Assembly (NCBI RefSeq): GCF_014280175.1
Contig: NZ_CP047931.1
Location: forward strand, 510,001 to 542,000
Direction: 5' to 3'
DNA length: 32,000 bases
Origin: Synechococcus sp. A15-28
GTDB lineage: Bacteria; Cyanobacteriota; Cyanobacteriia; PCC-6307; Cyanobiaceae
Shown here: piece after piece, positions 2,139-29,658 of the stretch
Layout of the letters: each line of letters opens with the position of its first letter
Position numbering within the stretch: position 1 is the stretch's first letter
Program-made: the position numbers and the translations under genes
The notes under the pieces: generated by a model
The model's database searches: none
Told to the model about the DNA's origin: nothing
Seen by the model: only the letters and a program-made list of their open reading frames with translations

Positions 2139-2860
2139 TGGCCTGTTTCGATCCCGCCGATCGGATCATCGTGGCCCTCGATGGCATGGCGCCCGAGCAG
2201 GCGCTGAGGTTTGCGGCTCAGGTGGATGGACTGCGCTGGGTGAAGGTGGGTCTGGAGCTGTTCGTGCAGGCCGGCCCAGAGGTGGTGGCCCTGCTGCGGG
2301 AGCAGGGGTTGCGGGTGTTCCTGGATCTCAAATTTCACGACATCCCCGCCACCATGGCGGGGGCCTGCCGGCGGGCGGCGGCGTTGGGGGCGGAGCTGAT
2401 CACGGTGCATGCCTGCTCCGGCAGCGAAGCGCTGCAGGCGGCTCAGGCCGCGGCTGTTGAGGGAGCCCAAACAGCAGGTCTCGATGCCCCAACGCTGCTG
2501 GCGGTGACGGTGCTCACCAGTTGGCAGGAGCAGCGGCTGCAACGGGAACTCGCCATCACGCAGGGCATCGCCGAACGGGTGCCGGCGTTGGCGCAGTTGT
2601 CGGCGACCGCCGGCATCGGCGGTTGTGTTTGCTCACCCTTGGAAGCCTCGGCGCTGCGGGCCCAGCACCCCGAACCGTTTGCACTTGTTACGCCAGGCAT
2701 TCGCCCCAAAGGGACTGCGATTGGTGATCAGGCCCGGGTGATGGGGCCGGCGGAGGCGCTCGCAGCAGGAGCCAGCCAGCTGGTGATCGGCCGGCCGATC
2801 AGCAAGGCTGACGATCCAAGCGCCGCGTTTGCCGCCTGCTGCGCTGAGCTCATTGGCTGA
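2138..2860 (+). CDS. pyrF: Orotidine 5'-phosphate decarboxylase
   Basis: Motifs [14 protein letters not shown] and LVIGRPI. The ATG overlaps the tyrS TGA by 1 nt (TGATG at 2136..2140). Confidence 0.92.
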
Positions 2861-2879
2861 TCGCTGCAGGCGGCAGTGC

Positions 2880-3518
2880 TCAAGACTTCTGCCCGATCCT
2901 GGGTTCAGTCCCCGCAATCAACCGCTCGATGTTGCTGCGATGGCGCCAGAGCACCATCAGGCTGGCCACAAGCGACACCACCACATAGGCGCTGCTGCCG
3001 CCGGAGAGCAACATCAGCACAGGCAATCCGATGGCGGCCACCACGCTGGAGAGCGACACGATCCGGAAGATCGAGATCACGGCCATGAATAGGCCAAAGC
3101 AGGCCAGCCCCACCGGCCAGGCCAGTCCCAGGAACATGCCCAGGCCGGTGGCCACCGCTTTGCCGCCCTTCCAGCCCAGCCACACCGGCCAGATGTGACC
3201 GGCCAACGCCGCCAGGCCCGCCAGCACCTGAAGCCAGTCATTCAGTCCAAAACTTTTCGCCAGCAGCACCGCCAGGGCGCCTTTGCCCACATCCAGCAGA
3301 AACACCACCAGTGCAGGGCCTTTGCCCACATTGCGCAGCACGTTGGTGGCGCCGGTGCTGCCGGAGCCGCAGGTGCGCAGGTCGATGCCCTTGAGCCAGC
3401 GGCCGGCGAGATAGCCGCTGGGGGTCGACCCCAGCAGGTAGCCGATGGCCAGGAGCAGCAGGGCGGTGAGGATCACAAGAACGAGACAGGCTGCTGGATC
3501 GCGCAGGAATGGAAGCAC
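2880..3518 (-). CDS. plsY: Glycerol-3-phosphate acyltransferase PlsY
   Basis: Polytopic membrane protein with the PlsY signature GSGSTGATNVLRN. The start at 3518 is GTG. Confidence 0.9.
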   Translation of the reverse strand: MLPFLRDPAACLVLVILTALLLLAIGYLLGSTPSGYLAGRWLKGIDLRTCGSGSTGATNVLRNVGKGPALVVFLLDVGKGALAVLLAKSFGLNDWLQVLAGLAALAGHIWPVWLGWKGGKAVATGLGMFLGLAWPVGLACFGLFMAVISIFRIVSLSSVVAAIGLPVLMLLSGGSSAYVVVSLVASLMVLWRHRSNIERLIAGTEPRIGQKS

Positions 3519-3589
3519 AGCGCGGGGCGGTTTGCACGGAGCCTGGCTTGGCTTGGTCGACTAAGTTGGTTGAGGTGGATCAGGTTGTG

Positions 3590-3847
3590 ATGAAGCAGGT
3601 CAACATGCATGAGGCCAAAACCCATTTATCGCGCTTGGTGGATGAGGCGGCAGCCGGTCAGTCGTTTGTGATCTGCAAGGCCGGTAAGCCGATGGTGCGC
3701 GTCACACCACTGAACCAGTCCGACGAAGCGGCCCCTGTTCGTTCACGGTTGGGAATGTTGAGGGGGCAGTTGTCTGTGCCGGACGACTTCGATCGCATGG
3801 GCCAGGAGGAGATTGCCGATTTGTTTGAAGGGATCGGCGAGCGCTGA
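3590..3847 (+). CDS. Type II antitoxin, Phd/YefM (prevent-host-death) family
   Basis: MKQVNMHEAKTHLSRLVDEAAAGQSFVICKAGKPMVRVTPL... is the typical Phd/YefM N-terminus, with a ...PDDFD... tail. I chose the ATG at 3590, because the longer ORF start at 3509 would overlap plsY. The stop overlaps the PIN gene start by 1 nt. Confidence 0.8.
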   Translation: MKQVNMHEAKTHLSRLVDEAAAGQSFVICKAGKPMVRVTPLNQSDEAAPVRSRLGMLRGQLSVPDDFDRMGQEEIADLFEGIGER

Positions 3848-4236
3848 TGCAGTTGTTGTTGGACACCCACCTTCTTCTGTGGGCCGTGGATCAGCCTGAA
3901 CGCTTGGATGCAGCGCTGATTCAGATGCTTGAAGACCCGTTAAACACCCCGGTGTTCAGCGTGGTGAGCCTCTGGGAACTGGTGATCAAACGGGGCCTGG
4001 ATCGGCCTGACTTTCAGGTGGAGCCCTCTTTGATCCGCCATGCCCTATTGGAGGGTGGTTGGCGCGAGTTGCCTGTGGAGGCCCACCATGCATTTGCCGT
4101 GGGGCAGTTGCCGGCGCTGCATCGAGATCCCTTCGATCGCTTGTTGCTGGCCCAGGCACAAGCCGATGGCCTGTTGCTGATCACCGCGGATCAGCTGCTT
4201 GCGCAAAACCCAGGCCCTGTGCGCCGGATGGACTGA
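3847..4236 (+). CDS. vapC: Type II toxin, VapC family PIN-domain ribonuclease
   Basis: MQLLLDTHLLLW (first acidic residue), SLWELVIK, HRDPFDRLLLAQA and LITAD are PIN/VapC hallmarks. 129 aa. Confidence 0.85.
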   Translation: MQLLLDTHLLLWAVDQPERLDAALIQMLEDPLNTPVFSVVSLWELVIKRGLDRPDFQVEPSLIRHALLEGGWRELPVEAHHAFAVGQLPALHRDPFDRLLLAQAQADGLLLITADQLLAQNPGPVRRMD

Positions 4237-5305: not shown

Positions 5306-5698
5306 TTAGGCTTTGATCGTGTTCTTGGCGAACGCCAGCACCTGCTCCGCAACGTTGCGCGCCTCGTTACTGTCCTGCTCATCGAAGCGATCGGCCGGTG
5401 CTTCGCTGTCGCTTGGGTAGCGGGTTTCGCTGTTCATTCGGCTGAGGGCTTTGAGCCGTATCTCACGCAGCGGTTGCACATCCAGCCCCGCTGATTCGAG
5501 GTTGTCGACCAGGCGATCCAGAGCATGGCTGTAGGGCGGCAGGGCGTCCAGGGAAATCAACAGGGCCTTCAGTGCCTTCTCCGCTGCCTGGCCGTAGTGG
5601 TAACAGGCCTGACTGTGAAAACCTTGTTGGGCGGTGAGTTCTGCGACGGCCCAATCGCTGTTGGCCTGCCGCATCCAGGCATCAATGCGTGGTGTCAT
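5306..5698 (-). CDS. HEPN domain protein (partner of the upstream nucleotidyltransferase)
   Basis: MTPRIDAWMRQANSDWAVAELTAQQGFHSQACYHYGQAAEKALKALL...NSETRYPS is a classical HEPN helical-bundle pattern. The ATG at 5698 overlaps the MNT stop (ATGA, 5695..5698). The 155-aa ORF-track version adds an Arg/Pro-rich extension that I reject. Confidence 0.8.
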   Translation of the reverse strand: MTPRIDAWMRQANSDWAVAELTAQQGFHSQACYHYGQAAEKALKALLISLDALPPYSHALDRLVDNLESAGLDVQPLREIRLKALSRMNSETRYPSDSEAPADRFDEQDSNEARNVAEQVLAFAKNTIKA

Positions 5699-6036
5699 GA
5701 CAGCCCCAGCCGCACGGCATCCAGGCCGATGGCGCGCCAGTAGGGGTCGTCGCCGTTGCGGCGCTCCTGCCATTCCAGCTCGGTCAGCGCCAGCACGTCG
5801 TCGGCCATTCCCAGATCCAGCACCGCATCCGCCAGCTCGCTGGCCTGGCTGCGGTTCGGGGCAACGGCCAGCACATCCACATCCGAAAAGGCATCCCAGT
5901 CGCCCCGGGCCCAGGAGCCGAACAGCCAGAGGCTGGCGCCGGGATGTTCAGCCAGCACGCTGCTGGCCTGCTGATGCAGTCCCTTGAGCCGCTCGGCCTG
6001 CTTGCGGCGGCGGATATCGGCAACCGTCATGCCCAT
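5695..6036 (-). CDS. Minimal nucleotidyltransferase (MNT) domain protein
   Basis: LFGSWARGDWDAFSDVDVLAV matches the GS-x(9-10)-DxD Pol-beta-type nucleotidyltransferase motif. 113 aa (or 111 aa from the second ATG at 6030). Confidence 0.85.
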   Translation of the reverse strand: MGMTVADIRRRKQAERLKGLHQQASSVLAEHPGASLWLFGSWARGDWDAFSDVDVLAVAPNRSQASELADAVLDLGMADDVLALTELEWQERRNGDDPYWRAIGLDAVRLGLS

Positions 6037-13662: not shown

Positions 13663-14391
13663 TCAGCCTCGTCGCTCCCGGTGCATCCAGCTGATCCAGT
13701 CCGCAGAGATCTCCTGTGGGCAGACCGCTTCGCATTCGAGGTTGCTGCTGCAGCTGCCGAAGCCTTCAGCCCGCATCTGATCCTGCATGGCCCGGGCCCT
13801 TGAGGCGCGCTCCGGCTGGCCCTGGGGCAGTTGACCGAGGTGCGCCAATTTGGCGGCGACAAACAAACTGGCAGAGGCATTCCTGCAGCTGGCCACGCAG
13901 GCACCGCAGCCGATGCAGGTGGCCGTGCTGAGGGCACTGGTGGCCTGGTCGCGGCCCACCGGCATGGCATTCCCATCCGGCGCTTGACCCGTGCCGGTGG
14001 AGCAATAGCCCCCCGCGGCGATCAGCCGGTCCAAGGCTGAGCGGTCCACCATCAGATCCTGGATGGCCGGAAAGGCCTTGGCGCGCCAGGGCTCCAGGGT
14101 CAATTCGGCGCCGTCCTCGAATTCCCGCAGATAGAGCTGACACACCGACGTGGCGGCTTTGGGGCCGTGGGCCTGGCCGTTCACCAGAAAGCCGCAGCTA
14201 CCGCAGATGCCTTCCCGGCAATCGTGCTCAAAACTCACCGGCCGCTCCCCCTCACTGATCAATTGCTCGTTCAGCTGATCGAGGGCCTCCAGCAGTGACA
14301 CATCCGGCGACACATCCGCCAGACCGTGGCGTTCGTAGCGGCCGGGTTGGTTTGCAGCGGGCTGACGCCAGATGCGCAGGGTGAGTTTCAT
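13663..14391 (-). CDS. sdhB: Succinate dehydrogenase/fumarate reductase iron-sulfur subunit
   Basis: Cys clusters [10 protein letters not shown] (2Fe-2S), [11 protein letters not shown] and CEAVCP (4Fe-4S/3Fe-4S). ATG overlaps the sdhA stop (ATGA, 14388..14391). Confidence 0.93.
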
Positions 14392-16304
14392 TTGTAACTC
14401 CTGGTGCTGGGTTGCAGCGAGGTGAACTGCAGCGCTTCGCTGTGGCGGATCGGCTCGGCACCATCCTGGTGTTCCCAGGCGGCGATGTGGGCGAAGTTGG
14501 CGTCATCACGGCGGGCTTCTCCCTCCGGGCTCTGGTGCTCCTCGCGGAAGTGGGCCCCGCAGGACTCCTCCCGCGCCAAGGCATCCCGCAGCATCAGCTG
14601 CGCCAACCCGAAGAAATCACCCACCCGCAGCGCCTTCTCCAGTTCGGCGTTGGGTCCCTGGCTCTCTCCGGGCACCCGCACCTCAGCCTGGAAGCGCTGT
14701 TCCAACGCGTTCACCTGGGCGATGCCCTCCCGCAGGCCATCGGCTTTGCGGCTGATGCCGCAGCGGTCGATCATCACCGCACCCAGTTCCCGGTGGAAGC
14801 TGTCCACAGGGGTTGTCCCGTCAATGGCCAACATGGCCTCGATGCGGAGGCGGGTGCTCTCCAGGGCATCGCGGCAGGCGGGGTGATCCGGCCTCACCTC
14901 CGGGGCAGGGTGGCCCGCCAGCCAGGCCGTGACCGTGGACGGCGCAATGAAGTAGCCATCGGCGAGGCCTTGCATCAGGGCGCTCGCCCCCAGGCGGTTG
15001 GCGCCGTGTTCGGAGTAGTTCGCCTCCCCCAGCACGAACAAGCCGGGGATGGAGCTCATCAACTGATAATCCACCCACAGGCCACCCATCGTGTAGTGGG
15101 GGGCGGGGTAGATCCGCATCGGTTTGCGGTAAGGATCATCACCGCTGATCCGCTCGTACATCGTCATCAAGTTGCCGTAGCGGGCAGCGATGGCGTCGCG
15201 GCCCTCAGCCTTGATCGCATCCGTCAGATCCAGATAGACCGATCGACCTCCGGGGCCTACGCCCCGACCCGCATTGCACAGTTCCCGCGCCCGGCGTGAG
15301 GCCACGTCCCGAGGGGCCATGTTGCCGTAACTGGGATAAAGCCGCTCCAGGAAATAGTCGCGTTCCTGCTCCGGGATCTCCTCGGCGGAGCGGGGGTCCC
15401 CCGCGTTCACCGGCAGCCAGATCCGGCCGTCGTTGCGCAGGCTTTCGCTCATCAGCGTCAGCTTGCTCTGGAAGGCATCACCACTGGGAATGCAGGTGGG
15501 GTGAATCTGGGTGAAGCAGGGGTTGGCGAACAGGGCGCCCTTGCGGTGGGCTCGCCAGATGGCGCTGGCGTTGGATTTCAGCGCGTTCGTCGAGAGGAAG
15601 TAGACATTGCTGTAACCCCCGCTGCAGAGCAGCACCGTGCGTGCCGTGTGCACCTCCAGCTCACCGCTGAGCAGGTGGCGGGCCACCACGCCCCGTGCCA
15701 CGCCATCGACGGTGATCAGCTCGAGCACATCACGGCGGGTGAGCAGTCGCACCCGGCCAAGCTCCACCTGGCGCATCAACGCCTGATAGGCGCCGTACAG
15801 CAACTGCTGACCGGTCTGGCCGCGGGCGTAGAAGGTGCGGCTCACCAGGGCGCCGCCGAAGCTGCGGGTGGCCAGGCTGCCGCCGTACTCCCGCGCGAAC
15901 GGCACCCCCTGGGCGACGCACTGGTCGATGATGGAGCTGCTGATCTCCGCCAGCCGCTGGCAGCCGCTCTCCCGAGCGCGGAAATCTCCCCCTTTCAGGG
16001 TGTCGGTGAACAGGCGACTGATGCTGTCGCCGTCCACGGCGACGGATCGTGCCGCATTGATCCCGCCCTGGGCCGCCACCGAATGGGCTCGGCGGGGGCT
16101 GTCGTGAAAGCTCAGCACCGTCACCCGGTAGCCCTGCTGCGCCAGGGTCGCTGCGGCGGAGGCCCCTGCCAGGCCGGTGCCCACCACAAGCACGTCGATC
16201 TGGCCCTTGCGCAGGGGGCTGATCAGGGGGAGTCCCTCCTTGGTGCGCTGCCAGGCATCGCTGATCGGACCGGCAGGAATCCTTGGGTCGGGCAGGCCGC
16301 TCAT
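14388..16304 (-). CDS. sdhA: Succinate dehydrogenase/fumarate reductase flavoprotein subunit
   Basis: The FAD fold is [14 protein letters not shown], the covalent-FAD His context is [15 protein letters not shown], and HYTMGG is present. True start taken as ATG 16304 ([12 protein letters not shown]...). The 796-aa ORF-track version runs back through sdhC and is rejected. Confidence 0.93.
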
Positions 16305-16981
16305 GCGACACCTCCCAGCGCCAGCACCAGGGTGACGGTCAGGAAGCCGCCGCCGACCAGGGCGGCCATAAGGCCCCCCCCCGTGCGCAGGGCGCCGCTG
16401 TTGTGCGGTGTCAACCAGCCCAGGCTGCGGTGGGCGGCCTCCGCGCCGTGGAGCAGATGGAGGGCCAGGGCCAAAGCTGCACCTGCGTAGAGGGCTGCGT
16501 TCCAGGGTTGTTGCAGCACCTGGATCAATGTGGCGGCTTCCTCTCCAGCTGCAGGGCGGGGCCAGCGCAATTGCTGCAGGTGCAGGATCAGAAATCCAAG
16601 GGTCACCAGACCGGCTGCTGTCGCGCTGCGGCTGGCCAGGGACGCCAGGGGGGATTGGCGACGACTGCGCAGCGTTGCGGTGTTGCCGGCTCTGCGGTTG
16701 GCCATGGCCTTGCTGAGGGTGAGGCTGATGTGAATCACGGCCAGCAGCAGCAGGCCGAACTCCACCAGCGGCAGCCATGGGCTGCTGTGCAGCGCTGTGG
16801 CATAGACCTCGAATTGCTCAGGCGCCAGCACCGCTGGCAGCAGGCCGATCAGATGCACCAGCACAAAAAGCACCAGCAGCAATCCCGTGAGGGCGGCACC
16901 CGAGCGAATCCACGCTGAAGGGATGGTGACCAAGGCAGCCTCAGCACGACAGCTGAAGTCCATGTTCCCTGATCGCAGCAT
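16301..16981 (-). CDS. sdhC: Succinate dehydrogenase cytochrome b subunit (b558-type, 5-TM anchor)
   Basis: Hydrophobic ~220-aa protein with conserved His in TM helices (VLVHLIG, AVIHISL, ILHLQQ, ALHLLHG). Stop overlaps the sdhA ATG (ATGA, 16301..16304). Start is ATG 16981 or ATG 16963; the ORF-track start at 17206 is rejected. Confidence 0.72.
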
Positions 16982-16986
16982 CCGTT

Positions 16987-18093
16987 GTGATCCAGGAAAG
17001 GAGTTGTCATGGTGGGTTGAGAGCCGATTCGCTGCAGCTCGTGCCCGTTGTGCCGCATCGCCTTCGTTGGTGGATCGCCCTCGTTGCTGCAGCGTTCGCT
17101 TTGACGCTGGCTCTGGGGTTGCAACGGCCATCGGTGCAGCCGCCGATGGCAGCACCTTCGGAGGCTTCCGAAGAGATTGATTGGGGCGCACCGAATGCAC
17201 AGCCATCCCTTGCTGAGGAGCAGCTGCTGCAGGTGGGGGCCTACATCACCAACATCAGCGAGATCGACCTGAGGGAAGACCAGTTCTCCATCGAACTGTT
17301 GCTCTGGACCCTCTGGCATGGGGATCCGGATCAGAACCCCAGTGATCAGTTGCGCGTCCTCAACGGCATCTACAACGGTGATATCCAGCGCTTCGAGCGG
17401 ATCCGCCGGGATCAGGCGGAGGCTCACAGCTGGAGCTTGTACAAGGTGCGTTCACCCGTGGTGAAGCGCTGGCGCCTGCAGCGCTATCCCTTCGACGACC
17501 AGCTCCTGCACGTTCAGATCGGTCTTGATGACCCCTTGCAGCCGGTGAACCTGGATGTGGTGCCGCAGGCCCCCTGCAGCGTGACCCCTAGCCTGTTGCT
17601 GCCGGGCTGGACCCTGAAGGACCCAAGCGGTTACGCCTCCAGCATCAGCCTGATGAATGATCTGGGCCGTCCTGTCTCCGATGGCATTGCGGTGCGCCGA
17701 CAACCCACCGTTTCGTTTGATCTGCCGATCCAAAGGCGCAGCTTGCTGTTCGTTGCCCCTGATTTCCTGGGTTACCTGCTGGCGGTCGGACTCTGTTGCA
17801 TGAGTCTGCTGATCACTCGCAGTCGGGACGATCTGATCCTTGCGGCGGTGGTGTCCGCCGGTGGCAACTATGTGTTCATTGCCGGCAATCTCCCTGTGAC
17901 GGCCATGACCGGTTTCATTGGCAATCTGCAACTGATCATTTTCCTGGGCATTCTTTATGTCGTTGCTGCAGACGAACTGATCGACAATCAGCTCAGTCTG
18001 ATCAATACACGGTTTGCTGAGGGGCTGCGGGTGCTGCTTCTGCCCAGTTACGTGGCGATGACGTTGCTGGGAATCTGGTGGATCATTCCATGA
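16987..18093 (+). CDS. Prokaryotic pentameric ligand-gated ion channel (pLGIC / Cys-loop receptor superfamily) homologue
   Basis: The extracellular domain begins VGAYITNISEIDLREDQFSIELLLWTLWHGD. The Cys-loop-equivalent motif is WRLQRYPFDDQLLHVQI (RYPFDDQ at 17482..17502; compare RYPFDSQTLH in GLIC as I recall it), followed by PGWTL. Four TM helices follow, including an M2-M3 junction ...FIAGNLPVT..., with a very short M3-M4 loop. The signal-anchor-like N-terminus is RLRWWIALVAAAFALTLALG. Start uncertain: GTG 16987, or TTG 17017 downstream of AAGGAG at 16998..17003. Confidence 0.85.
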   Translation: MIQERSCHGGLRADSLQLVPVVPHRLRWWIALVAAAFALTLALGLQRPSVQPPMAAPSEASEEIDWGAPNAQPSLAEEQLLQVGAYITNISEIDLREDQFSIELLLWTLWHGDPDQNPSDQLRVLNGIYNGDIQRFERIRRDQAEAHSWSLYKVRSPVVKRWRLQRYPFDDQLLHVQIGLDDPLQPVNLDVVPQAPCSVTPSLLLPGWTLKDPSGYASSISLMNDLGRPVSDGIAVRRQPTVSFDLPIQRRSLLFVAPDFLGYLLAVGLCCMSLLITRSRDDLILAAVVSAGGNYVFIAGNLPVTAMTGFIGNLQLIIFLGILYVVAADELIDNQLSLINTRFAEGLRVLLLPSYVAMTLLGIWWIIP

Positions 18094-19190
18094 CCAAACA
18101 TTCAGCGCGTCACCCCTCCGGCTACTGGACGTTGTTGACGTCCGGGCTCACCGTTGTGATCGCTCTGGTCGGCGCCTTGTTGATTCAGCCGCGTTTGAGT
18201 GAACGTCGGCTCGATATTGACGATCAATACATCCTCACCGCCACTGAAGTGCGGTCTCTTCCCGCGGGTACCCTCGCGGTGGTGCTGGATCGTTCCCCTG
18301 GCGAAGACCACAACGATTTCAAGTACCGCCTGCTGGAGCTGGTGCTCAAGCGCAGCGGTCGTCCCTTCGTCCTTGGACTCAGTGAAGTGGACGTCTCGCA
18401 AGATGAAGCCATTGCTGCTTTGGAACAAGGATTCGTCTTTGATTCGGCGGGCCTGCGAACCTTCACGCGCTTAGGCCGCAATCCCTTTGCCCTGAGCGTC
18501 GGTATCTATGGCGCTGGCGTGGATCTGAACCGGCGTCTGCGGGCCGTGCCCATTCCCGTCACTGGTGGCATCCTCGGACTCCGCAGCGGTTGGACCCATC
18601 GGAGTCAGATCAAGCGGCTGGCCACGATCCGCAACAAGCAGGACCTCCGCGACATCGTTCTGCTCCAAGGGGTGGGCTGGAGTGATGTGAACATCTTTGA
18701 TTCGGCGGGCCTGCGAACGTTCACTGCCCGATCGGAGAACCTATTTCGCCTGGTGGATCACCAACGGGTGCAGTTGTTCCCCAGAGGCATTGCGGAGTTG
18801 GAGCGGGAGGAACAGTTGATGGCGTCGTTTACATCCGGCACCACCCTGGATCCGAATCTGCTGCTGGCCTATCCCTACGCAGGGTTCTTTTACGTCAGTC
18901 CTGACAATCATGCACTGGCGTATGCGATTCAAAGGGGGTTTCAACGGGCGATCGCGGATGGGTCCTATCAGCAGTTGGTGGAAGAGCTGATCTTCACCCC
19001 ATGGTTGCGCCGCACGCTGTTGCTCAAGGATCGCCATGTGATTGTGTTACCCAATTCAGAGGCGGCGGATGTCCTGGAGGAGGTGGACAGCCGACATTGG
19101 ATTGTGCCCTGGCATGAACTGCTGAAAGGAGACATCCAAACCGGAAAACAGTTGTGTGCCGAGCCAAAGTTGAAGGCTCTCTGCTTTTGA
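18090..19190 (+). CDS. Membrane-anchored periplasmic solute-binding-like protein (family-3 SBP-like)
   Basis: ATG 18090 overlaps the pLGIC TGA (ATGA, 18090..18093). N-terminal TM anchor YWTLLTSGLTVVIALVGALLI. The body resembles uncharacterised family-3 SBP domains (...VPIPVTGGILGLR..., ...LFRLVDHQRVQLFPRGIAELEREE..., ...LLAYPYAGFFYVSP...). No adjacent ABC permease or ATPase. Confidence 0.7.
   Translation: MTKHSARHPSGYWTLLTSGLTVVIALVGALLIQPRLSERRLDIDDQYILTATEVRSLPAGTLAVVLDRSPGEDHNDFKYRLLELVLKRSGRPFVLGLSEVDVSQDEAIAALEQGFVFDSAGLRTFTRLGRNPFALSVGIYGAGVDLNRRLRAVPIPVTGGILGLRSGWTHRSQIKRLATIRNKQDLRDIVLLQGVGWSDVNIFDSAGLRTFTARSENLFRLVDHQRVQLFPRGIAELEREEQLMASFTSGTTLDPNLLLAYPYAGFFYVSPDNHALAYAIQRGFQRAIADGSYQQLVEELIFTPWLRRTLLLKDRHVIVLPNSEAADVLEEVDSRHWIVPWHELLKGDIQTGKQLCAEPKLKALCF
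18436..18466 (+). repeat. Copy 1 of a 31-nt intragenic direct repeat (encodes FDSAGLRTFT)
   Basis: TCTTTGATTCGGCGGGCCTGCGAAC-C-TTCAC. It is identical to copy 2 except for one synonymous position. Confidence 0.9.
18694..18724 (+). repeat. Copy 2 of the 31-nt intragenic direct repeat
   Basis: TCTTTGATTCGGCGGGCCTGCGAAC-G-TTCAC, located 258 nt (86 codons, in frame) downstream of copy 1. Confidence 0.9.
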
Positions 19191-19323
19191 TCCTTCCTGC
19201 AGCTGATGGGTAAAGGAATCAAGTTAAGGCGGCTGATTGCGGGCGAATATAGAAACCGTTTTTCCTGGAAATGACTCTGAGGTCGAACGAATTCAGGGCT
19301 GATTGATGCCCTGGATACTTAAA

Positions 19324-19396
19324 AGCCGATGACCTGACTTGAACAGGCGACCCACGCTTTACGAAAGCGTTGCTCTACCGGCTGAGCTACATCGGC
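19324..19396 (-). tRNA. tRNA-Thr(CGU): tRNA-Thr (anticodon CGU)
   Basis: The reverse complement GCCGATGTAGCTCAGCCGGTAGAGCAACGCTTTCGTAAAGCGTGGGTCGCCTGTTCAAGTCAGGTCATCGGCT folds as a cloverleaf. Acceptor GCCGATG/CATCGGC, D arm GCTC/GAGC, anticodon stem ACGCT/AGCGT with loop TTCGTAA, T arm GCCTG/CAGGT. Confidence 0.9.
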
Positions 19397-19415
19397 GGCA
19401 AATTCAATTTAACAT

Positions 19416-19727
19416 TTGAGACTGTGCCTGGCCTCCGTTTTGGACGACAACTCAACCTCAGGGAAAGGACTGGACCCGGCATTGAGGGAACGTCTGATCC
19501 GTGAGTCACGCACTCCCTGGCGGGAGCTCCGGCGTTTGCTCTGGTTCGCTTTGTTCGCCTCCGCTGGTCTTGGGCTCTTCACCATGCTCTTCCGTGCTTC
19601 TGCCGGCGACAGCGTCGACATCTCCGATTTCGGGATCCAGGGGGGTGCTCTCGTCCTCTTCGCCAGCCTCCTCTGGTTCGACCGCAACCGCAGTGTCGAT
19701 GTCGATCAGGATGGAGTCGACGGCTGA
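19416..19727 (+). CDS. Small two-TM membrane protein (DUF3493-like)
   Basis: ...LDPALRERLIRESRTPWRELRRLLWFALFASAGLGLFTMLF...GIQGGALVLFASLLWF matches my recollection of the DUF3493 layout. The 19416 start is TTG; the TTG at 19440 is equally plausible. Confidence 0.6.
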   Translation: MRLCLASVLDDNSTSGKGLDPALRERLIRESRTPWRELRRLLWFALFASAGLGLFTMLFRASAGDSVDISDFGIQGGALVLFASLLWFDRNRSVDVDQDGVDG

Positions 19728-20471
19728 GTCAGCTTCAACGATCTCTTCAGTGCTGGGTTCCGGTTCCGTTGAAGGTTCCGGAGTTGGTGATGGGGTGGGT
19801 TCCGGTTCCTGGATTGGTTCGGGTGTTGGTTCCGGTTCCGGGGTGGTTTCTGGAGTTGGTGAAGGGGTTGGTGCCGGAGGGTCAGGCCAGGTCAGGGCAT
19901 TCAACTGAAGGATCTGCAGCCCCAAGCTGGTGCGCTCCTGCTGCAATTGTTCAACGCTCCACGGCTCCGTGTCTGCGTTGGTTCCAGGTCCCCCCACCAG
20001 CAACAGCAGAGCCTGCACCAGTTGCTGGATTTGCCAGATCAGCAACGCCATCAGTGGCGCCGTTAACAGCAAAGTCACCAGTCGCGAGCTGTCCTGGAGG
20101 GGCGAAAATTCGTGGATCAGTCCCGCTGACGCATCCAGCCACCACAGCAGCGGCAACAACAGCGCTGCACCACCCACCAAGGCTGAGCGGCTCCCCCACT
20201 TGCCCTCTGAGGCGCTGAGCCTGAGCTGATCATTGCTGCGGGACCCCACAGGGCGACGGATCAGCAGCAGTGATCCCCAGTCGGCAGGTCGTTTCCAAAG
20301 CGCAACAGCCGGAGCCACAACGCCGACTCCCCAGATCAACAGGCGCTCAACGATCGGCACTGGGCCCGGATCCGCCCCTGCCAGGAGGAGGCGGATCAGC
20401 AGCAGTTCCAGGGGAATCACGCCGATGGCCAGGCATTGAAGCCAAAGCAGGGGTTCGCGACGGGACTGCAC
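19506..20471 (-). CDS. Membrane protein with Pro/Thr/Glu-rich low-complexity C-terminal tail
   Basis: GTG start 14 nt downstream of the infB stop. Four or five predicted TM helices in the first ~160 aa, then PDPPAPTPSPTPETTPEPEPTPEPIQEPEPTPSPTPEPSTEPEPS and an acidic tail. The last 73 codons are antisense to the DUF3493-like gene. Confidence 0.6.
   Translation of the reverse strand: MQSRREPLLWLQCLAIGVIPLELLLIRLLLAGADPGPVPIVERLLIWGVGVVAPAVALWKRPADWGSLLLIRRPVGSRSNDQLRLSASEGKWGSRSALVGGAALLLPLLWWLDASAGLIHEFSPLQDSSRLVTLLLTAPLMALLIWQIQQLVQALLLLVGGPGTNADTEPWSVEQLQQERTSLGLQILQLNALTWPDPPAPTPSPTPETTPEPEPTPEPIQEPEPTPSPTPEPSTEPEPSTEEIVEADSAVDSILIDIDTAVAVEPEEAGEEDESTPLDPEIGDVDAVAGRSTEEHGEEPKTSGGEQSEPEQTPELPPGSA
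19752..19886. repeat. Degenerate short tandem repeats (GGTTCCGGTTCC-like) encoding the PT/EP-rich linker
   Basis: Visible on the plus strand as repeated ggttccgg / ggtgttgg units. This corresponds to aa ~196-240 of the minus-strand protein. Confidence 0.7.
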
Positions 20472-28767: not shown

Positions 28768-29658
28768 TCAGCTCCCCGGGGTGACCACGGTGGAGATTTC
28801 TGCAGTGATGCTCAGGATGAGCCCATACAGGGAACTGATTCCCGAACGGGTCAGGCCAACGCTGCTGCCAGGGCCGATCCAGCGATCCACCATCTCTCTG
28901 GTGCCAGCGTCACCATCCATGTAGGCCTGCATCATCTGGCCGATGGCGAGATTGGCCTGGGACAGAAGCTTGCCGTTGTTCTGGCTGACGATGCAGCCGA
29001 CGCCTGAACGTCCGTAGGGGCGGAACGGCAACAGGGCTGTTGTTTCGGGGCTGCTGTTGGCAGCCAGCCAGAGTGTTCCTCCTCCAAGGATGGGAACCTC
29101 GCCGCTGTTGTAAGCGCTCAGTGCTTCGGCGGGGGTGTCGAAAGCCTTGAACGTGGCGTCTGGAATCACACTCTCCAAAACCTTGGCTGAGGCACTGTCC
29201 TTAACGACACCAATGGTTTGCTCCTTGAGCGAGTCCGGTGTCCCATCGACGGTGGTGTCGCTGGAGGTCAACAACCGTGTTCCACTTACACCAAAGGGAA
29301 GGCTGTAGCTCAATTGGGTGGAACGGTCCCAGGTGAAGGCGACCCCACAGGCGATGTCCGCTTTACCGGTGATCACTGCGTCGATCCCGTCCTTGACCGT
29401 GGAAGCCACTTGATAGCTGACCTGGCCACGGCCGGATTGCATGCGGATCTGTTCGAGGACATCGACGCCGAATCCCTCGTAGCCGGAGTCGGTTTTGCTG
29501 TAGAGGGGCTTGACTTCCTCGAAGATCACAGCATTCAAGGTGCCAGCAGCAGGTGACTGTTCAGTTGTCTTGGTCGCTTCACGTTCCGCAGATGGTTGGC
29601 CTGAGCACGCTGAGAGCAGAGCTATGGCTGCAAGGGCTAAGGCGGCGCGTAGCTGCAT
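28768..29658 (-). CDS. Lipoprotein, family-3 periplasmic solute-binding protein (amino-acid-binding type), orphan
   Basis: Lipobox LLSAC after a signal peptide. Two-lobed SBP pattern (...GFGVDVLEQI..., ...GKADIACGVAFTWDRS..., ...IGVVKDSASA...). No adjacent permease or ATPase genes. Confidence 0.78.
   Translation of the reverse strand: MQLRAALALAAIALLSACSGQPSAEREATKTTEQSPAAGTLNAVIFEEVKPLYSKTDSGYEGFGVDVLEQIRMQSGRGQVSYQVASTVKDGIDAVITGKADIACGVAFTWDRSTQLSYSLPFGVSGTRLLTSSDTTVDGTPDSLKEQTIGVVKDSASAKVLESVIPDATFKAFDTPAEALSAYNSGEVPILGGGTLWLAANSSPETTALLPFRPYGRSGVGCIVSQNNGKLLSQANLAIGQMMQAYMDGDAGTREMVDRWIGPGSSVGLTRSGISSLYGLILSITAEISTVVTPGS

What the first reader, a model, noticed from the sequence alone, without database searches (positions are those of the whole stretch)
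16987..19190. Pentameric ligand-gated ion channel homologue coupled by an ATGA overlap to a membrane-anchored SBP-like protein
Seen in sequence: the 368-aa ORF has pLGIC hallmarks, namely a beta-sandwich N-domain (…ISEIDLREDQFSIELLLWTLW…) and the Cys-loop-equivalent RYPFDDQLLH. It also has PGW, four TM helices with an NLP M2-M3 junction, and a minimal M3-M4 loop. Acidic residues (RSRDD) sit at the cytoplasmic mouth of M2. Its TGA overlaps the ATG of a 366-aa protein with one N-terminal TM anchor and a family-3 solute-binding-like body (ATGA at 18090..18093). Established knowledge: bacterial pLGICs such as GLIC and ELIC exist, and some bacterial family members carry extra periplasmic-binding-type domains fused at the N-terminus. 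Inference: here the binding module is a separate, translationally coupled, membrane-tethered protein. That suggests a two-component chemoreceptor channel in which the SBP-like subunit presents or senses the ligand. I am not aware of such a split arrangement being characterised. Spot counts of 60-nt lines in the SBP-like gene give about 55% G+C, versus about 70% in glgX. The pair also lies on the 3' side of tRNA-Thr, which hints at horizontal acquisition.
Basis: partly seen in the sequence, partly recalled or inferred. Interest (0 to 1): 0.8.

Follow-up and report, generated by a model that had tools for sequence, protein, structure and literature searches.

The report
Bacterial Cys-loop-type channel with tethered binding protein
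A marine Synechococcus-type cyanobacterium carries a two-gene operon for a bacterial relative of animal neurotransmitter-gated channels and a membrane-tethered solute-binding protein; this pairing was predicted by sequence analysis in 2005 but has never been tested, and it may offer a way to find what such bacterial channels sense.

Summary
ORF1 (16987-18093) is a pentameric ligand-gated ion channel (pLGIC) homologue. It has a β-sandwich ectodomain with an invariant YPFD Pro-loop, a pre-M1 Arg, four TM helices and an LP M2-M3 motif. Its AF2 model matches GLIC over about 320 columns (Foldseek E 5e-16). ORF2 (18090-19190) overlaps it by ATGA. ORF2 has one N-terminal TM anchor and a two-lobed type-II solute-binding fold (Foldseek E 5e-10 to GlnPQ, ArgBP and NocT).

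Neither protein reaches a Pfam or NCBIfam cut-off. The pair is adjacent in 24/24 picocyanobacterial genome loci and in three deeper lineages with unrelated flanks. The junction is always an overlap or a gap of at most 49 nt. The two proteins co-diverge (r = 0.96). No ABC transporter genes lie nearby.

The most likely function is a periplasmic SBP that senses a solute and gates or modulates the channel in trans. That step is inferred, not shown.

The novelty claim is overstated. Tasneem et al. 2005 already list the orthologue SYNW0593 as a prokaryotic LGIC and describe LGIC operons with stand-alone PBP-II genes.

The G+C dip is real but smaller than stated (0.58-0.59 against 0.655-0.67). The pair is accessory at this tRNA-Thr locus: 22 of 72 environmental contigs carry it and two keep only deletion remnants. 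I found no sign of recent transfer.

The parts
16987..18093 (+). ORF1: a pLGIC (Pro-loop receptor) homologue and orthologue of Synechococcus WH8102 SYNW0593. The true start may be at 17017, 17041 or 17050.
   Evidence: ORF listing. A family profile hits GLIC at E 3e-4. The AF2 model matches GLIC by Foldseek at E 5e-16 over about 320 columns. SYNW0593 appears in the alignment of Tasneem et al. 2005.
17056..17121 (+). ORF1 N-terminal hydrophobic helix (aa 24-45), probably a signal peptide with a possible ALG|LQ cleavage site
   Evidence: AF2 helix H24-45. The hydropathy peak covers aa 26-48. Cleavage is inferred.
17224..17736 (+). ORF1 extracellular β-sandwich domain (aa 80-250). It includes the Pro-loop YPFD (nt 17485-17496), PGW (aa 206-208), a long conserved loop C 'SLM.DLG' (aa 221-227) and the pre-M1 Arg250.
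   Evidence: pLDDT is about 85-95 over the β-strands. Invariant columns are listed. The residue alignment to GLIC pairs Y119-P120-F121-D122, G159-W160 and R192 with these positions.
17755..18084 (+). ORF1 transmembrane domain: M1 aa 257-276, M2 aa 280-301 (nt 17824-17889), M3 aa 304-336 and M4 aa 341-366, with a very short M3-M4 loop
   Evidence: AF2 helices. M1 to M3 is the most conserved part of the family, with SRDDLILAAVVSA..N.VFIA..LPV.AM.GFIG.LQ nearly invariant even at 39-48% overall identity.
18090..18093 (+). ATGA stop/start overlap between ORF1 and ORF2
   Evidence: Sequence. The equivalent junction in 24 genome loci is ATGA, GTGA, TGATG or a gap of at most 13 nt. In the deeper lineages it is ATGA or a gap of 18-49 nt.
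18090..19190 (+). ORF2: a membrane-anchored type-II (class F, SBP_bac_3-like) solute-binding-fold protein
   Evidence: AF2 pLDDT 86.5 and pTM 0.81. Foldseek matches GlnPQ SBD, ArgBP, NocT, SocA and the GluR0 LBD at E 5e-10 to 1e-8. Pfam SBP_bac_3 is only sub-threshold.
18120..18182 (+). ORF2 N-terminal TM anchor (aa 11-31), followed by a low-confidence linker (aa 32-48)
   Evidence: AF2 helix H11-31 with pLDDT below 50 at aa 32-39. The hydropathy peak covers aa 12-34. The feature is conserved in the family.
19155..19184 (+). Conserved C-terminal cysteine pair of ORF2 (C356 invariant, C365 nearly invariant). A probable disulfide, which argues for a periplasmic location.
   Evidence: Alignment columns. 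The pair is also present in the 28-38% identical relatives. The disulfide itself is inferred.
18436..18466 (+). 31-nt intragenic duplicate of 18694-18724 (97% identical). It creates a 10-aa insertion (FVFDSAGLRTFT) in a surface loop of ORF2.
   Evidence: Repeat D1. The insertion is seen only in the window, P0121 and P0122 when compared with 356-aa homologues. pLDDT is below 50 at aa 124-128.
19324..19396 (-). tRNA-Thr(CGU), whose 3' end faces the operon. It is context, not part of the module.
   Evidence: ARAGORN and Rfam at 65.5 bits.
16301..16963 (-). sdhC-like gene (Sdh_cyt), the first gene of a divergent sdhCAB operon. It is context only.
   Evidence: Pfam Sdh_cyt E 4e-9; sdhA and sdhB are confirmed by the same call.

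Best explanation
The window holds a two-gene operon of a marine picocyanobacterium.

Shown:
- ORF1 encodes a Pro-loop pentameric ligand-gated ion channel subunit of the SYNW0593 family.
- ORF2 is translationally coupled to ORF1 through an ATGA overlap. It encodes a type-II solute-binding-fold protein held on the membrane by one N-terminal TM helix and a flexible linker of about 20 residues.
- No ABC transporter genes lie nearby.

Inferred:
- Both ectodomains face the periplasm.
- The products are made in comparable amounts and associate.
- The clamshell protein binds a small periplasmic solute. In its liganded form it docks on, or hands the ligand to, the channel ectodomain and so opens or modulates a pore that is probably cation-selective. 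Selectivity is suggested by invariant Asp281 and Asp282 at M2 1'-2', with Arg280 at 0' and Val289 at the 9' gate.
- The resulting ion flux or depolarisation would be the output signal. The ligand and the downstream response are unknown.
For: ORF1 belongs to the pLGIC fold:
- The family profile hits only GLIC in the PDB (E 3e-4), with YPFD, GW, the pre-M1 Arg and the M2-M3 LP aligned.
- The AF2 model has a β-sandwich plus four TM helices. Its 50 best listed Foldseek matches are all pLGIC chains, nearly all GLIC, led by E 5e-16.
- 18 of 20 family members weakly hit NCBIfam LGIC_1.
- The orthologue SYNW0593 was classified as a prokaryotic LGIC in PMC549065.

ORF2 has the SBP fold:
- The model has pLDDT 86.5. 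Foldseek matches amino-acid-type SBPs and the GluR0 LBD.
- The classical C-terminal SBP_bac_3 motif aligns with SocA.

The two genes are linked:
- They are adjacent and co-directional in 24 of 24 genome loci, with a stop/start overlap or a gap of at most 13 nt.
- The same pairing occurs in three lineages where the channel is only 39-48% and the SBP only 28-38% identical, in unrelated genomic contexts.
- Pairwise identities of the two proteins correlate at r = 0.963. The correlation with the neighbouring sdhA is about 0.70.

ORF2 does not look like a transport SBP:
- No ABC permease or ATPase gene lies in the window around the pair or in the related loci inspected.
- Soluble distant relatives of ORF2 are orphans. 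One overlaps a HAMP-HisKA sensor kinase gene.

Precedent: PMC549065 proposed that stand-alone PBP-II proteins cooperate with operonic LGICs. SBPs are known to stimulate membrane receptors in trans (abstracts of PMC9602780 and PMC11113362).
Against: - There is no direct evidence of a physical complex, of ligand binding by ORF2 or of ion conduction by ORF1.
- Neither protein reaches a curated family threshold.
- The TMD of the monomer model has only moderate confidence (pLDDT 55-80). No multimer model could be made.
- The channel's own ectodomain has a strongly conserved loop C and other invariant positions, so it may bind a ligand by itself.
- The canonical α-amino-acid-binding residues of SBP_bac_3 could not be identified in ORF2. 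I made only a by-eye motif comparison, and no structure-based alignment was available.
- The -1'/-2' Glu that typifies cation-selective pLGICs is absent from the alignment (Ser279, Arg278), so ion selectivity is uncertain.
Confidence: 0.55

Rival explanations
1. ORF2 is a ligand-independent auxiliary subunit. The SBP fold would serve only as a structural, assembly or gating-kinetics module of the channel, as the fused N-terminal domain of DeCLIC does. The channel's own ectodomain would bind the agonist.
For: The ORF1 ectodomain has its own invariant loop C and other conserved positions. ORF2 matches SBP_bac_3 only weakly by sequence, and I could not recognise the canonical amino-acid-binding residues. 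The DeCLIC NTD modulates gating (PMC12664993).
Against: ORF2 keeps a complete two-lobed clamshell with high model confidence. It also keeps motifs shared with about 2,600 soluble SBP-like relatives. That suggests a conserved binding function rather than a scaffold.
Confidence: 0.15
2. The pair is an SBP-dependent conductive uptake system. ORF2 would capture an ionic nutrient and the pentameric pore would be the translocation path for that same species.
For: ORF2 has no ABC, TRAP or TTT partner genes nearby, so the only conserved membrane partner is the channel. An invariant acidic ring lies at the inner mouth of M2.
Against: I know of no pLGIC that acts as a nutrient importer fed by an SBP (my own knowledge). 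Distant relatives of ORF2 pair with a sensor kinase or stand alone, which points to signalling.
Confidence: 0.1
3. The two genes are merely co-transcribed neighbours with independent functions: a stand-alone channel, and an orphan binding protein serving a transporter or receptor encoded elsewhere.
For: Operon membership alone does not prove interaction. Another SBP_bac_3 gene also stands alone in the window at 28768-29658.
Against: The pair is adjacent in 24 of 24 loci and in three deep lineages with unrelated flanks. The stop/start coupling is conserved and the two proteins co-diverge at r = 0.96, against about 0.70 with the adjacent sdhA. Where the locus decays, both genes are hit together (L017, L093 and L151; the L110 and L157 deletions).
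Confidence: 0.1
4. The pair is cargo of a recently acquired genomic island integrated at tRNA-Thr.
For: G+C is 7-8 points below the flanks. The pair lies at the 3' end of tRNA-Thr. The slot is variable: only 22 of 72 environmental contigs carry the pair, and other contigs carry different cargo there, including an integrase-looking ORF. In L018 and L019 the pair is 10-15 G+C points below its flanks.
Against: The window has no integrase, no tRNA-derived direct repeat and no PADLOC hit. The pair's G+C follows the host's G+C across 23 loci. It occupies the same slot (gluQ or sdh ... pair ... tRNA-Thr-infB) in clades whose copies are only 55-77% identical. Deletion remnants show loss, not gain.
Confidence: 0.15

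Closest known systems
SYNW0593 of Synechococcus sp. WH 8102, and the 'ART-LGIC + stand-alone PBP-II' predicted operons of Tasneem, Iyer, Jakobsson and Aravind 2005 (PMC549065)
   Same: SYNW0593 is the same protein family as ORF1. Its ectodomain in their supplementary alignment is nearly identical to ORF1. The paper states that some bacterial LGIC genes lie in conserved neighbourhoods with stand-alone PBP-II genes and proposes that they cooperate functionally.
   Different: Figure 3 is not held, so I could not confirm that SYNW0593 itself is one of their operon examples. The paper does not describe the TM anchor of the binding protein, the conserved stop/start overlap, the co-divergence or the accessory distribution. 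I found no experimental work on the pair.
GLIC (Gloeobacter violaceus proton-gated pLGIC; e.g. PDB 3eam, 4npq)
   Same: The overall fold is shared, and the alignment covers about 320 columns. Also shared are the YPFD Pro-loop, the GW before β9, the pre-M1 Arg, the LP in the M2-M3 loop, the minimal M3-M4 loop and the lack of Cys-loop cysteines.
   Different: Identity is only 13-15%. ORF1 has a loop C about 10 residues longer. It carries Asp-Asp at M2 1'-2' in place of Glu at -2'. It also has a conserved operon partner.
DeCLIC (Desulfofustis pLGIC with a fused periplasmic N-terminal domain)
   Same: It is a prokaryotic pLGIC with an extra periplasmic module that modulates gating (PMC12664993).
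   Different: In DeCLIC the module is fused to the channel. PMC12664993 relates its NTD lobes to Ca2+-binding regulatory domains of other prokaryotic proteins, not to the PBP clamshell fold found here. In this window the module is a separate, membrane-anchored type-II clamshell protein.
PBP-I-fused bacterial LGICs (e.g. Bradyrhizobium japonicum blr0080 and a Magnetospirillum magnetotacticum protein)
   Same: A periplasmic binding-protein module is combined with a pLGIC core (PMC549065).
   Different: In those proteins the module is fused in cis and belongs to the type I superfamily. Here it acts in trans and belongs to type II, class F.
GluR0 and ionotropic glutamate receptors
   Same: An SBP_bac_3-type clamshell is the ligand sensor of an ion channel, and the family also occurs in cyanobacteria. 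The Nostoc GluR0 LBD (2pyy) is among the Foldseek matches of ORF2.
   Different: In iGluRs the clamshell is fused to a tetrameric K+-channel-type pore. Here the presumed partner is a pentameric Pro-loop channel encoded by a separate gene.
SBP-dependent chemoreceptors and sensor kinases (e.g. AgtS and AruS with adjacent SBP genes)
   Same: A binding protein encoded next to a membrane receptor activates it in trans (PMC11113362 and PMC9602780 abstracts). One distant ORF2 relative overlaps a HAMP-HisKA kinase gene (L038).
   Different: The output module here is an ion channel rather than a kinase or an MCP, and the SBP is membrane-tethered.

Membership tests
Pentameric ligand-gated ion channels (Pro-loop / Cys-loop receptor superfamily) | Extracellular β-sandwich domain of about 200 residues followed by four transmembrane helices | tested here: met
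   The AF2 model has β-strands at aa 80-250 and helices at 257-276, 280-301, 304-336 and 341-366. Foldseek aligns about 320 columns to GLIC, GLIC chimeras and an insect RDL receptor at E 5e-16 to 3e-14, with 1,106 PDB chains at E <= 0.001.
Pentameric ligand-gated ion channels (Pro-loop / Cys-loop receptor superfamily) | Conserved proline at the tip of the β6-β7 loop (the YPFD-type motif). PMC4795631 describes it as the most conserved position of the superfamily. | tested here: met
   Y167-P168-F169-D170 is invariant in 48 family members and aligns with GLIC Y119-P120-F121-D122. The statement from PMC4795631 was read.
Pentameric ligand-gated ion channels (Pro-loop / Cys-loop receptor superfamily) | Conserved basic residue at the end of β10 (pre-M1) and conserved Pro in the M2-M3 loop | tested here: met
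   Arg250 is invariant and aligns with GLIC R192. L302-P303 are invariant and align with GLIC L246-P247.
Pentameric ligand-gated ion channels (Pro-loop / Cys-loop receptor superfamily) | Significant match to curated sequence models (Pfam Neur_chan_LBD / Neur_chan_memb; NCBIfam LGIC_1) | tested here: not met
   Pfam gives no hit at E <= 1. NCBIfam LGIC_1 scores 16.7 bits against a cut-off of 500. 18 of 20 relatives hit it weakly, with best E 1.1e-5. The family profile against the PDB reaches GLIC at E 3e-4. ORF1 is therefore a divergent member that profile and fold methods recognise but curated models do not.
Pentameric ligand-gated ion channels (Pro-loop / Cys-loop receptor superfamily) | Homopentameric assembly with M2 lining an ion-conducting, ligand-gated pore | not testable with these tools
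   Only a monomer could be modelled. The M2 register is read from the HMMER alignment to GLIC: R280 at 0', D281/D282 at 1'/2', V289 at 9'. That is suggestive only.
Periplasmic solute-binding proteins, type II / class F (Pfam SBP_bac_3) | Two α/β lobes joined by a hinge (the Venus-flytrap fold) of the amino-acid-binding class | tested here: met
   The AF2 model has pLDDT 86.5. Foldseek matches GlnPQ SBD1/2, ArgBP, NocT, SocA, YckB, STM4351 and the GluR0 LBD at E 5e-10 to 2e-8 over about 260 columns, with 902 chains at E <= 0.001.
Periplasmic solute-binding proteins, type II / class F (Pfam SBP_bac_3) | Score above the Pfam SBP_bac_3 gathering threshold | tested here: not met
   ORF2 scores 11.7 bits (E 0.22) against a cut-off of 26.4. 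Among the relatives scanned, only the doubled 577- and 585-aa proteins reach the cut-off. The profile search against PDB sequences finds only the C-terminal motif of SocA at E 1.7.
Periplasmic solute-binding proteins, type II / class F (Pfam SBP_bac_3) | Export to the periplasm by a signal peptide, lipobox or membrane anchor | tested here: inconclusive
   A conserved hydrophobic helix covers aa 11-31, with net positive charge before it and net negative charge after it. A conserved C-terminal Cys pair is also present. The topology is inferred and was not tested with a dedicated predictor.
Periplasmic solute-binding proteins, type II / class F (Pfam SBP_bac_3) | Cognate ABC (or TRAP/TTT) membrane components encoded nearby | tested here: not met
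   The large ORFs and the tested neighbours around the pair include no transporter permease or ATPase gene. None appears in L026-L033 either. The only conserved neighbour is the pLGIC gene.
Periplasmic solute-binding proteins, type II / class F (Pfam SBP_bac_3) | Conserved ligand-contact residues for an α-amino acid (Ser/Thr...Arg in lobe 1 and Asp in lobe 2) | tested here: inconclusive
   Only a by-eye motif comparison was possible. Soluble relatives keep a 'GTS....ER' motif, whereas ORF2 has 'GAG....RR' at that position. Model coordinates and structure-based alignments were not available.
LGIC + stand-alone PBP-II operons (Tasneem et al. 2005) | [quoted passage not shown] | tested here: met
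   24 of 24 genome loci and three deeper lineages meet it. The description is in PMC549065, and SYNW0593 is in that paper's alignment.

The most novel reading that the evidence does not exclude
The tethered clamshell protein is the primary ligand sensor of an obligate hetero-complex (for example 5 channel subunits plus up to 5 SBPs). That would make it a pentameric, in-trans counterpart of ionotropic glutamate receptors. It would also be the first prokaryotic pLGIC whose physiological agonist could be found through its partner. A more speculative extension is that it supplies chemical sensing in marine Synechococcus. From my own knowledge, these lack canonical chemotaxis genes, yet some strains are reported to swim towards nitrogen compounds. 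I did not verify that here. Most picocyanobacteria are non-motile (PMC7994388), so this could not be the general role.
Probability: 0.3. Interest if true: 0.8.

Novelty: new member of a known kind. Interest (0 to 1): 0.4.

Why it matters
The physiological roles and native ligands of prokaryotic pLGICs remain largely unknown (my own knowledge for GLIC, ELIC and sTeLIC). PMC12664993 calls DeCLIC's physiological context poorly characterised, and says little is known about the accessory periplasmic domains of prokaryotic pLGICs.

A strictly co-inherited, separately expressible binding protein gives an experimental handle. Its ligand can be screened in vitro and then tested on the channel. If the SBP gates the channel in trans, that would be a new way of coupling a Venus-flytrap sensor to a pentameric pore.

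The pair is abundant in ocean metagenomes, with clusters of up to about 600 member sequences. It is polymorphic among picocyanobacteria, so it may mark an ecologically relevant sensing trait.

Tried and rejected
- Pfam and NCBIfam gave no family-level hit for either protein.
- PDB sequence searches with ORF2 alone or with its profile gave nothing significant.
- The third word-indexed homologue search, run with the ORF1 alignment, returned only the same close family and no distant pLGICs.
- Promoter and terminator scans of 16700-19500 found nothing beyond chance.
- Rfam found only the tRNA.
- The repeat search found no tRNA-derived att-like repeat.
- PADLOC gave no defence-system hit.
- Literature searches for SYNW0593/SYNW0594 or for an experimentally studied pLGIC-SBP pair found nothing.
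- I suspected that the ORF next to the tRNA in L146 and L114 is an integrase, but Pfam did not confirm it.
- I rejected 'independent neighbours' because of the conserved coupling and co-divergence.
- I rejected 'recent island cargo' as the main reading because the pair's G+C tracks the host's and its position is conserved across clades.

Full report
**1. Observation**

The two ORFs exist as described. ORF1 runs 16987..18093 on the + strand and is 368 aa from its GTG. ORF2 runs 18090..19190 on the + strand and is 366 aa from its ATG. The ORF1 TGA overlaps the ORF2 ATG as ATGA at 18090-18093.

tRNA-Thr(CGU) lies at 19324-19396 on the minus strand, so its 3' end faces the pair.

Two corrections are needed. 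First, the ORF1 start is uncertain. GTG 16987 is only 23 nt from the start of the divergent sdhC gene at 16963. In-frame TTG 17017, GTG 17041 and GTG 17050 fit the N-termini of homologues better. Second, G+C is 0.593 for ORF1 and 0.579 for ORF2, against 0.655 for glgX and 0.655-0.673 for the other neighbours. The dip is real but amounts to 7-8 points, not 15.

**2. What ORF1 is**

Curated models fail. Pfam gives no hit. NCBIfam LGIC_1 scores 16.7 bits against a cut-off of 500, although 18 of 20 relatives touch it weakly.

Other sequence evidence is consistent. ORF1 alone hits only GLIC chains in the PDB (E 0.05-0.8). A 20-sequence family profile improves this to E 3e-4. That alignment pairs:
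- Y167-P168-F169-D170 with the GLIC Pro-loop Y119-P120-F121-D122;
- G207-W208 with G159-W160;
- Arg250 with the pre-M1 R192;
- L302-P303 with the M2-M3 L246-P247.

All of these positions are invariant in 48 family members.

An AlphaFold2 model built on that alignment has mean pLDDT 72, with the ectodomain at about 90 and the TMD at 55-80. It shows an N-terminal hydrophobic helix (aa 24-45), a disordered linker, a β-sandwich (aa 80-250) and four helices. Foldseek aligns about 320 columns to GLIC, GLIC chimeras and an insect RDL receptor at E 5e-16 to 3e-14.

ORF1 is therefore a divergent but genuine member of the pLGIC (Pro-loop receptor) superfamily.

Using the GLIC register, Arg280 falls at M2 0', the invariant Asp281 and Asp282 at 1'-2', and Val289 at the 9' gate. 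The usual Glu at -1'/-2' is missing. Cation selectivity is plausible, but it is an inference.

**3. What ORF2 is**

Pfam SBP_bac_3 is sub-threshold (E 0.22), and PDB sequence searches find nothing significant.

The AF2 model is confident (pLDDT 86.5, pTM 0.81). It has a helix at aa 11-31, a low-confidence linker and then a two-lobed α/β body. Foldseek matches class-F amino-acid-type binding proteins at E 5e-10 to 2e-8 over about 260 columns. These include GlnPQ SBD1/2, ArgBP, NocT, SocA and STM4351, as well as the GluR0 ligand-binding core.

The following points argue for a periplasmic, membrane-tethered clamshell. This topology is inferred.
- The hydrophobic helix is conserved.
- The charge distribution around it fits an N-in orientation.
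- A C-terminal cysteine pair is conserved (C356 and C365).

An exhaustive profile search finds about 2,600 relatives. Most are 280-310-aa soluble proteins of proteobacteria annotated as hypothetical or 'solute-binding family 3'.

In the three contexts I inspected, these relatives have no ABC transporter and no pLGIC nearby. One overlaps a HAMP-HisKA sensor kinase gene. This clade therefore looks like signalling or orphan SBPs rather than transport SBPs.

**4. Linkage of the two genes**

A scan of one genome per species found 25 loci. All are Synechococcus, Parasynechococcus or Cyanobium, apart from one record titled as a Salipiger bermudensis MAG, which is probably mis-binned.

An ORF2 homologue follows ORF1 on the same strand in all 24 loci that extend far enough. 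The junction is ATGA, GTGA, TGATG or a gap of at most 13 nt.

Three SBP clusters are only 28-38% identical to ORF2 but keep the TM anchor and the Cys pair. Each has an ORF1-like gene (39-48% identical) directly upstream, with an ATGA overlap or an 18-49-nt gap. Their genomic contexts are unrelated and their G+C is 0.53-0.61.

Across 26 pairs, the pairwise identities of the two proteins correlate at r = 0.963. In the 12 loci that have sdhA, the correlation with that adjacent gene is only about 0.70.

No ABC permease or ATPase gene lies near the pair in the window. The gene order is glgX, an MBL-fold gene, gluQ, sdhB, sdhA, sdhC, ORF1, ORF2, tRNA-Thr, a Pro/Glu-rich membrane protein, infB and nusA.

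The pair behaves as one inherited module.

**5. Origin and distribution**

Loci that at first looked non-syntenic carry glgX, MBL, gluQ and then the pair. That is the same slot without the sdh operon.

Across 23 loci the pair's G+C follows the host's (0.47-0.62) and is on average 3 points below the flanks. L018 and L019 are outliers at -10 and -15 points.

I scanned metagenomes with a 42-nt core of the tRNA. Of 72 contigs with at least 1.3 kb on the relevant side, 22 carry the pair and 48 lack it. Two keep only the 3' part of ORF2 abutting sdhB, which is a deletion scar.

The slot is variable. One contig has bestrophin-like and TMEM175-like channel genes there. Others have an integrase-looking ORF that Pfam does not confirm.

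The window itself has no integrase, no att-like repeat and no defence or ncRNA signal.

My reading is that the pair is an old, accessory resident of a variable region, with repeated loss and perhaps occasional transfer. It is not a recent island.

**6. Mechanism**

Shown:
- a pLGIC-fold subunit and a tethered SBP-fold protein;
- translational coupling and strict co-inheritance;
- no transporter partner nearby.

Inferred:
- Both ectodomains are periplasmic and the products associate.
- The clamshell binds a solute and, when liganded, gates or modulates the channel, or hands it the ligand.
- The resulting flux, probably of cations, is the signal.

I put about 0.55 on this. The rivals are a ligand-independent auxiliary subunit (0.15), an SBP-fed conductive uptake path (0.1) and independent neighbours (0.1).

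**7. Comparison with what is known**

Tasneem, Iyer, Jakobsson and Aravind (2005, PMC549065) already include SYNW0593 of Synechococcus WH8102 in their alignment of prokaryotic LGICs. Its ectodomain sequence is nearly identical to ORF1. They report three things:
- N-terminal PBP-I fusions in some bacterial LGICs;
- conserved neighbourhoods of LGIC genes with stand-alone PBP-II genes;
- a proposal that these binding proteins pre-concentrate or sense ligands for the channel, possibly in chemotaxis.

Their Figure 3 is not held, so I could not check whether SYNW0593 is one of their operon examples.

I found no experimental study of such a pair. According to the 2025 paper PMC12664993, the only prokaryotic pLGIC accessory N-terminal domain that has been partially characterised is the fused NTD of DeCLIC.

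The finding is therefore a new member of a known, predicted kind. This analysis adds:
- the membrane anchor of the binding protein;
- the conserved stop/start overlap;
- co-divergence down to about 30-45% identity;
- the non-ABC character of the SBP clade;
- the presence/absence polymorphism at the tRNA-Thr slot.

**8. Verdict**

Interest is 0.4. A specialist would not be surprised. Even so, the pair is a practical route to the long-open question of what prokaryotic pLGICs sense.

Noticed in passing
window 18436-18466 and 18694-18724: A 31-nt direct repeat (97% identical) lies inside ORF2. The upstream copy adds a 10-aa insertion (FVFDSAGLRTFT) that duplicates the conserved downstream motif IFDSAGLRTFT. 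The insertion occurs only in the window and its two closest relatives (P0121, P0122), and it falls in a low-confidence surface loop. It looks like a recent intragenic duplication or gene conversion.
   Followed up: partly
L110 (about -537..-55 relative to the tRNA pattern) and L157 (about -335..-63): Two environmental contigs keep only the C-terminal part of ORF2 directly next to sdhB. L110 keeps aa 206-365 and L157 keeps aa 276-366. These appear to be deletions that removed sdhA, sdhC, ORF1 and the 5' part of ORF2 together.
   Followed up: partly
L017 5917-8073; L066, L093, L151, L154: In one single-cell genome (Synechococcus AG-683-C23) and several metagenome contigs, ORF1 and/or ORF2 homologues are split into two or three frame-shifted pieces. 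This could be joint pseudogenisation or assembly error.
   Followed up: no
L136, between sdhA and tRNA-Thr (ORFs at 1455-2396 and 2504-3250 of the oriented contig): In one contig that lacks the pair, the same slot holds two other putative ion-channel genes: Bestrophin_2 (E 5e-37) and TMEM175 (E 1e-7).
   Followed up: partly
L146 (392-aa ORF at -1336..-158 relative to the tRNA pattern) and L114: An ORF with a tyrosine-recombinase-like C-terminus lies directly next to tRNA-Thr. A 307-aa ORF of unknown function lies further upstream; its N-terminus looked primase-like to me by eye. Neither gets a Pfam hit. Together they may be an integrated element, which would make this tRNA an insertion hotspot.
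   Followed up: partly
L038 5001-7386: A soluble distant relative of ORF2 (P0436, 295 aa) overlaps by 11 nt a downstream HAMP-HisKA-HATPase sensor kinase gene. Here an SBP of this clade is coupled to a different membrane signalling protein.
   Followed up: no
window 13663-16963 (minus strand), compared with L002-L006, L009 and L017: The sdhCAB operon between gluQ and the pair is itself variable. The window and about 14 loci have it. It is absent from loci where the pair directly follows glgX, MBL and gluQ.
   Followed up: partly
window 28768-29658 (minus strand): A second SBP_bac_3 protein, this one canonical (Pfam E 4e-10), has a lipoprotein-like N-terminus (..LLSACSG..). It sits next to a radical-SAM gene with no ABC transporter genes adjacent.
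   Followed up: no
window 3509-4236 (+) and 5306-6036 (-): Two type II toxin-antitoxin-like pairs are present: Phd/YefM antitoxin with a PIN-domain toxin (genes abut at 3847), and a HEPN protein with a nucleotidyltransferase (overlapping genes).
   Followed up: partly
window 19506-20471 (minus strand): A 321-aa membrane protein with a Pro/Glu/Thr-rich repeat tail has no Pfam or PADLOC hit. It is conserved next to infB in nearly all related loci whether or not the pair is present, but it is very divergent (32-97% identity).
   Followed up: no
L015 (contig CAXQPR010000058.1): A contig binned as 'Salipiger bermudensis' (an alphaproteobacterium) carries the picocyanobacterial pair at 65% and 54% identity. 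The MAG is probably mis-binned.
   Followed up: no
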